Origin: Escherichia coli O127:H6 str. E2348/69
GTDB lineage: Bacteria > Pseudomonadota > Gammaproteobacteria > Enterobacterales > Enterobacteriaceae
DNA: 64,000 nucleotides
Assembly: GCF_000026545.1 (NCBI RefSeq)
Contig: NC_011601.1
Strand: one strand, 5' to 3'
Shown here in pieces: positions 35,401 through 38,400 of the stretch; positions within the stretch are counted from its first letter, which is position 1; every line of letters begins with the position of its first letter. The position numbers were made by a program.

Positions 35401-38400
35401 AATTAATGAAGCCTATGAGCGAATGCTGCGTGGTGATGTGAAATATCGTTTTGTTATCGATAATCGCACACTAACAGACTGAAAAAATTAATAAACATCC
35501 TGTGGTTTAACATATTAACTTCGCTCCACTTAACTTTTTAGTTAAGGAGAGCGAAATAATATCAAAGTAGTGGTAAACCTATAGCGTAAATTCAGATTGT
35601 TAAATTAACTCCACTACTTTACACGTTAGTTATGAGCGATTTCTGATAGTGTCTGGTTTAATCAGAGCTTTATTATCTGCGACGTTTATTTTTATTTAAG
35701 AGAGCCACCTGCAAGTTGTTATTCCACCAGAGAGTGAATCGCAAAGCAGGTCATCATTTCATCTGTATATCTGTATGCCAAATGGCATTCCCCCTCCTTT
35801 TCCGCCGATATTTTGTTGTGAACGGCGGAGTTTCGCTTAAAAAAGCACCAGCAGTGGTTTTACAGCTATATGGTGTATAAAAAATGTTCTCATACAGATG
35901 TTTTGTGAATGTGTGGGTTGACATTCATATGAAAAAAATCATAATTCCATCATGTTTGTGTGGGGTCTTTTCTGTATCTTACGCATCGCACTCAAGCCTG
36001 ACAGAAAATATGTTGTAAGGCTCATATCAAAAACCGCCATTAGCTCATCAGGAAGAGCAGACGACAACCAGGATTGTTGTATGGTACGGGGTTCGAGGCC
36101 TCGATGGCGGTCCAACTTTTCAAAACTTTTCTGAATCAGATCCCCTTATTATCATCCCTGCAAAGTGGAACATTGCCATTGTTTGGCTATTCAGGACGGG
36201 TCAGACCAATGAAAAAGCCCACACAGGGGAGAGTGGCTGAAATGGGAAGCTAAAGACTCAAGTAAACTTATCGGAAATAAGGACCACGCATTACGGGGGC
36301 TATCATCGCCGATGGTTGGGATTCGGCAAATCAGGTTGATGACGTAGAGAGTAAATTATCTGCTCACCGCTGCGTCACCCCTTCGTAAATCAGGCGTAGC
36401 GCGAATACACCAATAATTGCACCAATAACCCAACTGGCAACGCGTTGCATACGCCCATAAGCACGACGCACTGCGGGCAAAGAAAACGCCTGACTAAGAA
36501 AGACTCGCCAGATAATTGATGCGAGCACAATCCCCGCCCAGGCCATTAATCGTGCCCATGTTGGTGTTTCGGCATGTAATGTTACTGAGAAAATACTGAT
36601 AAAAAATAAAACGGTTTGCGGGTTAGAGAGATCGGTAATTAATCCACGGCGGAAAAAGACATACCAGGGGGCGCTAATCGGTTGTTGTAGTGTGCTCATT
36701 TGCGGTGTTGAGTGGCGGCGCATGCTACTACACCACGCAAACCATAAAAGATAAGCACCGCCGACGATTCTGATAAGCGAAAAAATCTCCTCACACTGCG
36801 TAATTAGCGTTGCAAGACCAAACAAACCCAACCCGGAATAAAATGCATCGCCCAGCGCCACGCCCAGCCCGGTCAACACCCCTGCGCGTCGACCGGAAGC
36901 CAGGCTGGTTTGTACTACCACAAAGAGATTGGCTCCCGGATTAAAAAAAGTAATCACGAACAATCCTACGGTCAGGTAAACGGCGTGCAAAGGATCCATA
37001 GTGATTTCATCCATAAATAAGTGAAGTAACTTCATCATATTTCTACCAAAAATAATCGGGTGCGAGAGAGATCACAAAGTGTCTTATTTCCGGTTACTGG
37101 CGTTTATGCCCTGACTGAACTAATTATTAATCAACCCAATAATGTGGGTGGGTGATAGTGTGATAACAACTCTGGAGCCGTAATATGAAAATAATCTCTA
37201 AAATGTTAGTCGGTGCGTTAGCGTTTGCCGTTACCAATGTCTATGCCGCAGAATTAATGACCAAAGCGGAATTTGAAAAGGTTGCATCGCAATATGAAAA
37301 AATAGGTGATATTTCAACCAGTAATGAAATGTCGACCGCAGATGCGAAAGAAGATTTGATCAAAAAAGCCGATGAAAAAGGGGCTGATGTGTTGGTACTG
37401 ACCTCCGGTCAAACTGACAATAAGATCCACGGCACGGCAAATATTTATAAGAAGAAGTAATTCTGAATCCTATGTAAACATCCCCGATGCGTAAGTTTAT
37501 CGGTGATCATCATCTATTGAAATTTATGCCGGATAAAGCGTTCGCGCTGCATTCGGCAGTTCAGCTTTTCAGCCGCCGCCAGAACGTCGTCCGGCTGATA
37601 CCTAAATAATTCGCCGCGGCTGTTTTATCGCCATTAAATTTCTCCAGTGCCTGTTGCGCTGTCAGCAAGCCTGGAATGGGAGTCTTCGCCGACTCGCGTG
37701 CCAGTTCCGGCAGTAGCAGCTGCAAAAATTGCGGCGTTAAATCCGGCGTCGATTCCACACTTAAAAACAGCGCCAGTCGTTCCATCATATTGCGCAGTTC
37801 ACGAATATTGCCCGGCCAGTCGTAGTGCACCAGCATGGTTTCGCTTGCCTGTAACCCCTGGCGTAATGCGGCAGCAAACGGGGCGGAGAGCGCCGCCAGA
37901 GACACTTTCAAAAAGCTTTCCGCCAGCGGCAGAATATCCGCCACCCGCTCGCGTAGCGGCGGCAGTTGCAGGCGTAAAATACTCAGCCGATAAAACAGGT
38001 CACGGCGAAACTGCCCTTGCTGCATATCTTCTTCCAGATTGCAGTGAGTGGCGCTAATGACCCGCACATCTACCGGAACAGGCTGATGCCCGCCGACGCG
38101 GGTGACCTCTTTTTCTTCCAGCACCCGTAACAGGCGAGTCTGCAAAGGTAGCGGCATTTCGCCAATCTCATCCAGAAACAGCGTACCGCCGTGGGCAATT
38201 TCGAACAGCCCGGCGCGACCTCCGCGTCGCGAGCCGGTGAACGCCCCTTCCTCATAGCCAAACAGCTCTGCTTCCAGCAGCGATTCGGCAATCGCCCCGC
38301 AGTTGACGGCAACAAACGGATGTGACTTTTTGCCCTGTCGCGCATCGTGGCGGGCAAAATATTCCCGATGAATCGCCTGGGCCGCCAGCTCTTTGCCCGT

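What the first reader, a model, noticed from the sequence alone, without database searches (positions are those of the whole stretch)
35483..36363. ORF-poor 880-bp gap between yahK and yahN where K-12 carries additional small genes
I recall K-12 having yahL and yahM (ORFan-type genes) between yahK and yahN. Here the interval has no ORF longer than 60 aa (the only one, 35952..36134, has no supporting signals). It is AT-rich and contains short inverted repeats (e.g. aaagtagtgg ... ccactacttt near 35565..35617). It may be the ancestral empty site, a decayed island, or a regulatory/sRNA region for yahN.
Basis: partly seen in the sequence, partly recalled or inferred. Interest (0 to 1): 0.3.

Follow-up and report, generated by a model that had tools for sequence, protein, structure and literature searches.

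The report
yahL deletion scar retaining tRNA-like xtpA
The "empty" gap between yahK and yahN is the ordinary E. coli K-12 interval with the yahL gene cleanly deleted (an allele seen in known phylogroup-B2 strains), and it still carries the known small gene xtpA with its embedded tRNA-like sequence and a broken copy of yahM.

Summary
The interval 35483-36363 is AT-rich (40% G+C against 51% for the window) and has no ORF longer than 60 aa. It is not an anonymous gap. It is collinear with K-12 yahK-yahN except that 835 bp are missing at 35704|35705. The missing piece is the yahL coding sequence plus 6 nt upstream and 13 nt downstream.

The same junction occurs in 1072 of 5426 complete E. coli genomes, including strains I know to be phylogroup B2. 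A divergent Escherichia lineage carries a diverged yahL at the same site, so this is a deletion, not an ancestral empty site.

An 11/12 sigma-70 promoter ends 6 nt before its ATG.

yahM (36104..36347) carries two 1-bp deletions. The 10-bp inverted repeat is at chance level.

One new point emerged. The tRNA-like element (36033..36114) did not vary in six Escherichia sequences, E. albertii included. The xtpA reading frame has a stop at codon 4 in two of those lineages. The element is homologous to a pseudo-tRNA at the argN position of lambdoid phage tRNA clusters.

Overall this is an ordinary, already explained locus of low interest.

The parts
35483..35704 (+). Remnant of the yahK-yahL spacer (yahL upstream region). 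It ends with the yahL Shine-Dalgarno sequence AAGAGAG at 35698-35704.
   Evidence: blastn against K-12: window 35300-35704 matches K-12 343751-344169 at 93.8%.
35520..35555 (+). Hairpin just after the yahK stop (16-nt arms, 4-nt loop). It has no T-run, so it is not a canonical intrinsic terminator.
   Evidence: the repeat finder I1. Conserved in K-12, with recognisable counterparts in E1V33 and E. albertii. The terminator scan found none.
35564..35620 (.). It is at chance level.
   Evidence: about 15% of shuffles give one. Disrupted by indels in K-12.
35704..35705 (.). Deletion junction. 835 bp present in K-12 (344170..345004: the yahL coding sequence plus 6 nt upstream and 13 nt downstream) are absent here. 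The junction is blunt, with no microhomology.
   Evidence: The uninterrupted junction is found in 1072/5426 complete E. coli genomes.
35705..35917 (+). Remnant of the yahL-xtpA spacer.
   Evidence: Window 35705-36600 matches K-12 345005-345902 at 95.9%. Homology with E1V33 and E. albertii begins only at about 35892.
35918..35945 (+). xtpA promoter: -35 TTGACA, 16-nt spacer, -10 CATAAT. The A of the ATG lies 7 nt after the -10 hexamer, and no Shine-Dalgarno sequence is present.
   Evidence: 11/12 match. A match of at least 11/12 occurs anywhere in the region in 4.8% of shuffles. Conserved from E. coli to E. albertii.
35952..36134 (+). xtpA, a 60-aa ORF. It differs from K-12 XtpA (b4845) by one residue, A21V.
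   Evidence: The exact protein is on 260 contigs, named 'hypothetical protein [Escherichia]'.
36033..36114 (+). tRNA-like sequence embedded in xtpA codons 28-55. It forms a cloverleaf with an encoded CCA end. The 'anticodon' arm is a 7-bp stem with a 6-nt loop, which is not a decoding loop.
   Evidence: ARAGORN 36034..36114. MFE cloverleaf at -30.8 kcal/mol, z = -3.2. No Rfam tRNA hit. Invariant in six Escherichia sequences. Phage homologues.
36104..36347 (+). yahM pseudogene. Two 1-bp deletions (A6 to A5 at about 36212-36216, GGG to GG at about 36235) leave a 49-codon open frame.
   Evidence: PGAP marks it 'frameshifted' in strain RM14723, whose interval is identical. It is intact in the Nissle-derived strain EcN_Sk.
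36364..37038 (-). yahN (LysE family exporter), the convergent right-hand flanking gene.

Best explanation
The interval is the normal Escherichia coli yahK-yahL-xtpA-yahM-yahN locus in a derived, partly decayed state. An old, blunt 835-bp deletion removed exactly the yahL coding sequence. This allele is fixed in a large set of E. coli that includes known B2 strains. In this particular sub-lineage two 1-bp deletions also inactivated yahM. What remains functional is the xtpA unit. A near-consensus sigma-70 promoter is placed so that transcription should start at the A of the ATG, giving a leaderless mRNA. That RNA carries a tRNA-shaped element 82 nt downstream of the start. In K-12 this gene is published as encoding a 60-aa peptide that affects GcvB sRNA expression. 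I know that paper only from its title and the RefSeq annotation. My inference from comparative data is that the part under strong selection is the tRNA-like RNA, together with its promoter and spacing, rather than the peptide. The element descends from the pseudo-tRNA at the argN position of lambdoid phage tRNA clusters.
For: Collinearity with K-12, apart from one 835-bp gap at 35704|35705, is shown. Searches give the allele frequencies. The uninterrupted junction is in 1072 genomes, among them DSM 30083, NU14, JJ1887, an O25b:H4 strain and the Nissle-derived EcN_Sk, and yahL is found in 4076 genomes. For polarity, L006 is a divergent 'E. coli' species representative whose yahK is 88% identical to both the window and K-12. 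It has an intact yahL (79% aa identity) at the same site, with flanks about equally diverged. The xtpA identification rests on K-12 annotation b4845, 59/60 aa identity and the promoter. The reference, Muto et al. 2022, is cited in PMC10767902. The tRNA-like element is supported. One search shows its invariance across window, K-12, L004, L005, L006 and E. albertii. Variable sites number 0/85 in the element against 26/81 in xtpA codons 1-27 (Fisher p = 7e-10). It is identical in 4781 of 5168 E. coli genomes. The single O157:H7 change turns a G.U pair into G-C in the T stem. The ORF is not conserved. Codon 4 is a stop in L006 and E. albertii, and variable sites fall 11:9:6 over the three codon positions. 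Phage homology at the argN position is shown.
Against: No expression data exist for this strain, so the leaderless start and any processing of the tRNA-like part are inferred from sequence and from a paper I could not read. Deletion polarity rests on one outgroup lineage with yahL. Two other Escherichia lineages (E1V33, E. albertii) lack yahL and its flanks, so the state at the root of the genus is ambiguous. The invariance was measured on only six sequences outside the E. coli genome collection, one of them a MAG. XtpA is intact in every E. coli examined (K-12, the B2-type window and EcN_Sk, O157:H7), so a peptide function specific to E. coli is not excluded. Assignment of the listed strains to phylogroup B2 comes from my knowledge of them, not from a typing run here.
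Confidence: 0.85

Rival explanations
1. Ancestral empty site: the window shows the state before yahL was inserted in other E. coli.
For: The indel is almost exactly gene-sized, running from 6 nt before the ATG to 13 nt after the stop, with no repeats at its ends. yahL is AT-rich (39% G+C) and restricted to E. coli/Shigella according to PMC11057252. E1V33 and E. albertii lack it. B2 is often placed as an early-branching phylogroup (my own knowledge).
Against: L006 is about 12% diverged in yahK from both K-12 and the window, while those two are about 97% identical to each other. It carries yahL at the same position, diverged to about the same degree as its flanks (83.5% nt across yahL, 81-86% in the flanks). 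The window retains the yahL ribosome-binding site and both flanks, which yahL-less E1V33 and E. albertii do not have.
Confidence: 0.07
2. The conserved function of the xtpA unit is the 60-aa peptide (the published model), and the tRNA-like shape is an inert fossil of a phage tRNA that happens to lie inside the ORF.
For: The title of Muto et al. 2022 and the RefSeq product name 'putative transcriptional regulator XtpA'. The ORF is intact with at most one amino-acid change in K-12, the B2-type window, EcN_Sk and O157:H7.
Against: There is a stop at codon 4 in E. albertii and L006, with no in-frame ATG/GTG/TTG downstream (checked by eye in L006 only), and a different C-terminus in E1V33. In codons 1-27 most changed codons are non-synonymous (6/9, 10/12 and 7/8 against K-12), spread evenly over codon positions. 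Meanwhile 85 nt of tRNA-like sequence have no substitution at all, third positions included. Protein-level selection alone does not predict that pattern.
Confidence: 0.25
3. The gap is an assembly or sequencing artefact, with yahL collapsed out.
For: None beyond the clean edges of the indel.
Against: The identical junction is present in 1072 independent complete genomes. Genomes with the junction (1072) and with yahL (4076) sum to 5148 of the 5176 that match the interval at all, which fits two mutually exclusive alleles, though I did not test overlap directly.
Confidence: 0.01
4. The interval is a regulatory region (promoter, 5'UTR or sRNA) for yahN.
For: It is AT-rich and non-coding. The xtpA/yahM transcription unit points at the 3' end of yahN, and no terminator was detected, so convergent transcription could in principle interfere with yahN.
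Against: yahN is on the minus strand and its start codon is at 37038. The interval therefore lies downstream of its stop codon, and the yahN promoter must lie in the yahN-yahO spacer.
Confidence: 0.05

Closest known systems
E. coli K-12 xtpA (b4845), described by Muto et al. 2022, J Biochem 171:459, as a leaderless mRNA including a tRNA-like sequence
   Same: Same locus and orientation, and the same promoter. The ORF is 60 aa with 59/60 identical residues, and the tRNA-like sequence is 100% identical.
   Different: In the window it lies 247 bp from a yahL deletion scar instead of downstream of yahL, and the overlapping yahM is frameshifted.
Pseudo-tRNA at the argN position of the ileZ-argN-argO tRNA cluster of lambdoid / Stx phages (phiP27, mEp460, plasmid pHX138.261ft_1; the canonical tRNA-Arg form is in PhiR49_2)
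   Same: The acceptor stem, D arm, T arm and CCA end are shared, as is the 5' half up to GCAGACGACA. Identity is 77-86% over about 82-92 nt. Both it and the 81-nt phage variant fall below E = 1 against Rfam's tRNA model.
   Different: The anticodon-arm region differs (AACCAGGATTGTTGTATGGTA against CGATAACAGGGTTGTTGGTG). All 14 viral contigs found carry the phage type and none the chromosomal type. The chromosomal copy stands alone, has its own promoter and lies inside an ORF. The phage copies sit between tRNA genes downstream of the Q antiterminator or a methylase.
K-12 yahL / yahM ORFan genes
   Same: The flanks of yahL and the whole of yahM are present and collinear.
   Different: The yahL coding sequence is absent and yahM has two frameshifts. 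yahM is also knocked out independently in O157:H7 by a nonsense change at codon 12. No Pfam family reaches its cut-off for either protein.

Membership tests
xtpA (b4845) orthologue | Syntenic position between yahL/yahK and yahM/yahN on the yahK strand | tested here: met
xtpA (b4845) orthologue | 60-aa ORF with near-identical sequence | tested here: met
   59/60 identical residues (A21V)
xtpA (b4845) orthologue | Embedded tRNA-like sequence | tested here: met
   100% identical to K-12. Cloverleaf.
Leaderless mRNA | Transcription starts at or within a few nt of the A of the start codon, with no Shine-Dalgarno sequence | tested here: inconclusive
   The -10 CATAAT hexamer ends 6 nt before the ATG and no purine-rich Shine-Dalgarno sequence is present. 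The actual transcription start cannot be measured with these tools.
Canonical tRNA (Rfam RF00005) | Scores above threshold against the tRNA covariance model | tested here: not met
   No hit at E <= 1. As a control, the canonical phage argN scores 56 bits.
Canonical tRNA (Rfam RF00005) | 7-nt anticodon loop with U33 and a purine at position 37 | tested here: not met
   The MFE fold has a 7-bp stem with a 6-nt loop. ARAGORN's alternative reading (anticodon GGA) places A at position 33 and T at position 37 by my reading of the sequence.
Canonical tRNA (Rfam RF00005) | Cloverleaf with acceptor, D and T arms, and a CCA end | tested here: met
Phage argN-position tRNA / pseudo-tRNA family | Sequence homology across the acceptor, D and T arms | tested here: met
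   77-86% identity, E down to 3e-17. Alignments.
Phage argN-position tRNA / pseudo-tRNA family | Location in a tRNA cluster downstream of the Q antiterminator or a methylase in a lambdoid late region | tested here: not met
   The window copy is solitary and chromosomal, between yahK and yahN.
yahL-deletion allele seen in known B2 strains | Uninterrupted junction AAGAGAG|CCACCTGC | tested here: met
   100% match of the 120-bp junction probe in known B2 strains (DSM 30083, NU14, JJ1887; 99.2% in EcN_Sk) and in 1072 genomes in all.
yahL-deletion allele seen in known B2 strains | Window strain typed as phylogroup B2 (Clermont markers) | not tested
   The markers lie outside the 64-kb window. Phylogroup is inferred from strains sharing the allele.

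The most novel reading that the evidence does not exclude
The unit maintained by selection at this locus is not the XtpA peptide. It is a domesticated phage-derived pseudo-tRNA: an RNA with acceptor, D and T arms and a CCA end but a non-decoding 'anticodon' arm. It is expressed from its own conserved promoter with a fixed 82-nt leader and has stayed unchanged in every Escherichia lineage sampled here, out to E. albertii. On this reading the xtpA ORF is a young, E. coli-restricted overprint, and the GcvB-related phenotype might be an RNA effect.
Probability: 0.45. Interest if true: 0.5.

Novelty: already known. Interest (0 to 1): 0.25.

Why it matters
For the scan, this closes the finding. The 'gap' is a known locus in a common allelic state, and its one real gene, xtpA, was added to the K-12 annotation only recently, which is why it looks unannotated and signal-less.

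Two modest consequences follow. First, yahL has been promoted as a conserved E. coli/Shigella-specific qPCR target (PMC11057252). Yet 1350 of 5426 complete genomes (25%) have no yahL match, and 1072 carry this clean deletion, including strains of major ExPEC lineages. Such an assay should undercount those strains.

Second, the tRNA-like element is perfectly conserved while the ORF is interrupted in two sister lineages. That gives a cheap, testable reason to ask whether the published peptide or the RNA is the active product of xtpA.

Tried and rejected
- **Rfam scan.** A scan of the interval at E <= 1 found nothing, so no known sRNA, riboswitch or canonical tRNA is present.
- **Terminator scan.** None was found. 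The hairpin after yahK lacks a T-run.
It is at chance level and not conserved.
- **Pfam on YahL, YahM and XtpA.** Nothing reached a family cut-off.
- **First alignment.** The global MAFFT alignment misplaced the left flank. I replaced it with local blastn.
- **Literature.** The primary xtpA paper (PMID 35081614) is not held. Other papers citing it add no detail. Searching 'xtpA' mostly returned unrelated XTPase and XTP hits.
- **Deletion mechanism.** I looked for repeats or microhomology at the deletion ends and found none.
- **Ancestral 'empty' spacer.** I looked for homology between the yahK-xtpA spacers of E1V33 and E. albertii that would define an ancestral empty state. None was detectable beyond the post-yahK hairpin.
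- **Phage copy of the chromosomal allele.** I searched viral contigs for one and found none among 14 hits.

Full report
**What is in the sequence.** The interval 35483-36363 lies between yahK (+ strand, stop at 35482) and the convergent yahN (36364..37038, - strand). Its longest ORFs are 60, 59, 58, 56 and 54 aa. G+C is 40.3% against 51.0% for the window. The inverted repeat it mentions is real: 35564-35573 / 35611-35620, 10 bp, perfect. However, a repeat of that quality appears in about 15% of shuffles and is broken by indels in K-12. I treat it as chance.

**Comparison with K-12.** MG1655 annotates yahK, yahL, xtpA (b4845, 'putative transcriptional regulator XtpA', 60 aa), yahM and yahN across this region. 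Local alignment gives two collinear blocks:
- window 35300-35704 matches K-12 343751-344169 at 93.8%;
- window 35705-36600 matches K-12 345005-345902 at 95.9%.

The 835 bp of K-12 between them are missing. They comprise the yahL coding sequence plus 6 nt upstream and 13 nt downstream. The junction is blunt. It follows directly after yahL's AAGAGAG ribosome-binding site, and there are no repeats or microhomology at the ends. The rest of the K-12 interval is present, as described below.

**How common the allele is.** A 120-bp probe across the junction is uninterrupted in 1072 of 5426 complete E. coli genomes. K-12 yahL is found in 4076. Together these make 5148 of the 5176 genomes that match the interval at all, which fits two mutually exclusive alleles, although overlap was not tested directly. 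Carriers of the junction include the type strain DSM 30083, NU14, JJ1887, an O25b:H4 strain and the Nissle-derived EcN_Sk. From my own knowledge these are phylogroup B2 strains, so the allele is at least widespread in B2. I did not type the window strain or the other carriers. The window's interval is 100% identical to strain RM14723, isolated from a dog.

**Deletion or ancestral empty site.** I anchored on YahN and scanned one genome per bacterial species, which returned several Escherichia lineages.
- **L006** is a species representative labelled 'E. coli SCPM-O-B-8794'. Its yahK is about 88% identical to both the window and K-12, whereas the window and K-12 are about 97% identical to each other. 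It has an intact yahL (79% aa identity) at the same position, with flanks of similar divergence. yahL was therefore already there before the window lineage and K-12 separated.
- **The window** still holds yahL's upstream and downstream non-coding flanks.
- **E1V33 and E. albertii** lack yahL and also lack those flanks. Their homology to K-12 resumes only at the xtpA promoter region, at about window 35892.

I conclude that the window shows a secondary deletion. The state at the root of the genus remains ambiguous.

**The 60-aa ORF is xtpA.** The ORF at 35952..36134 differs from K-12 XtpA by one residue, A21V. The exact protein is recorded on 260 contigs as an Escherichia hypothetical protein. 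A TTGACA-16-CATAAT promoter (11/12 match) lies at 35918..35945, so the A of the ATG is 7 nt past the -10 hexamer, and no Shine-Dalgarno sequence is present. A match of that quality appears anywhere in the region in 4.8% of shuffles. Its position, and its conservation out to E. albertii, make it credible. This geometry fits the title of the paper that named the gene: Muto et al. [quoted passage not shown] RegulonDB v12 cites that paper for XtpA. I could not read it.

**The tRNA-like element.**
- ARAGORN reports a tRNA-like gene at 36034..36114.
- The RNA folds as a cloverleaf with an 8-bp acceptor stem, D and T arms and an encoded CCA end (-30.8 kcal/mol, z = -3.2).
- Its 'anticodon' arm is a 7-bp stem with a 6-nt loop, and Rfam's tRNA model gives no hit at E <= 1.
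- As a control, the same model scores a canonical phage relative at 56 bits but misses the 81-nt phage variant.

**Phage relatives.** Homologues are found only for this roughly 85-nt piece. They sit at the argN position of the ileZ-argN-argO cluster, downstream of the Q antiterminator or a methylase. Hosts include phiP27, mEp460, TL-2011c, PhiR49_2, the Yersinia phages YeP1-3 and a 90-kb E. coli plasmid. The chromosomal element shares its 5' half exactly with the degenerate 81-nt phage variant but has a different anticodon-arm sequence. All 14 viral contigs carrying the shared 5' half have the phage type. The consensus fold of chromosomal and phage copies is a cloverleaf, and three of its pairs keep pairing through changes on both sides.

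**Conservation pattern (the new observation).** I aligned the window, K-12, an E. coli-like MAG, E1V33, L006 and E. albertii.
- The tRNA-like element and its immediate 5' AAAA are invariant.
- The neighbouring DNA is 10-22% diverged.
- Variable sites number 0 of 85 in the element against 26 of 81 in xtpA codons 1-27 (Fisher p = 7e-10).
- Within E. coli, 4781 of 5168 genomes are identical over 87 nt.
- The one O157:H7 difference turns a G.U pair into G-C in the T stem.

The reading frame behaves differently. Codon 4 is a stop in L006 and in E. albertii, and E1V33 has a different C-terminus. Variable sites in codons 1-27 are spread 11:9:6 over the three codon positions, and most changed codons are non-synonymous. 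XtpA homologues form 11 clusters. The five that carry a source name are all Escherichia, and the other six are unnamed. The simplest reading is that selection acts on the RNA, its promoter and its spacing, and that the ORF is a younger overprint restricted to E. coli. This is an inference from few lineages and needs experiments.

**yahM.** yahM (36104..36347) starts inside the T arm. In the window it has two 1-bp deletions and stops after 49 codons. PGAP flags it as frameshifted in RM14723. About 144 genomes share this exact allele. EcN_Sk has an intact yahM. O157:H7 has an independent nonsense codon at position 12. yahM therefore looks dispensable.

**Verdict.** The finding is real as an observation but ordinary in meaning. 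It is a known locus carrying a common lineage-specific gene deletion, a lineage-specific pseudogene and an already described small gene. 'Ancestral empty site' and 'yahN regulatory region' are rejected, and 'decayed island' is roughly right. The only part that might interest a specialist is the contrast between a perfectly conserved phage-derived pseudo-tRNA and a non-conserved xtpA reading frame.

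Noticed in passing
window 34438-34465 (5' end of yahK): The window lacks 5 bp (TGTTG) after codon 5 of yahK compared with both K-12 and the otherwise 99.8%-identical strain RM14723. The annotated frame stops after 9 codons, and the long ORF restarts at Met17 (34484). This is either a strain-specific yahK frameshift or a sequence error.
   Followed up: partly
K-12 yahL (L002 2677-3492), absent from the window: yahL is used as an 'E. coli/Shigella-conserved' qPCR marker (PMC11057252). The forward primer has no match in the window. yahL is undetectable in 1350 of 5426 complete genomes, and 1072 of the genomes carry this clean deletion.
   Followed up: partly
L033 (EcN_Sk, a Nissle-derived strain) against K-12 L002: In EcN_Sk, yahK, xtpA, yahM and yahN are 100% identical to K-12. 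The roughly 470 bp flanking the yahL deletion are only 91-95% identical to K-12 and closer to the window. This is a sharply bounded mosaic, suggesting an old deletion haplotype with recombination on both sides.
   Followed up: partly
L029 5600-7181 (Escherichia sp. MOD1-EC7003): This lineage has another rearrangement of the same interval. Only the 3' end of yahL is left, abutting a 157-aa ORF that looks like a transposase by eye. The xtpA / tRNA-like element is deleted.
   Followed up: partly
L007 (E. albertii) 680-1700: E. albertii has lost yahK, keeping only its last codons and the post-yahK hairpin. As a result yahJ is followed almost directly by the xtpA promoter and the tRNA-like element.
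   Followed up: partly
window 35698-35880: After the deletion, the yahL Shine-Dalgarno sequence (AAGAGAG, 35698-35704) lies 11 nt upstream of a TTG that opens a 54-aa ORF (35716..35880). This is a possible accidental fusion product. I have no evidence that it is expressed or conserved.
   Followed up: no
L053 (O157:H7 strain F6321) about 1700-2020: The O157:H7 lineage carries the only common variant of the tRNA-like element, a T-stem change from G.U to G-C that is synonymous in xtpA. It also has a nonsense codon at yahM codon 12.
   Followed up: yes
K-12 yahM promoter region (literature): A 2026 bioRxiv reporter study (10.1101/2025.05.13.653802) reports a yahM transcription start site repressed by IHF. 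This may be the xtpA promoter, but the text I read gives no coordinates.
   Followed up: no
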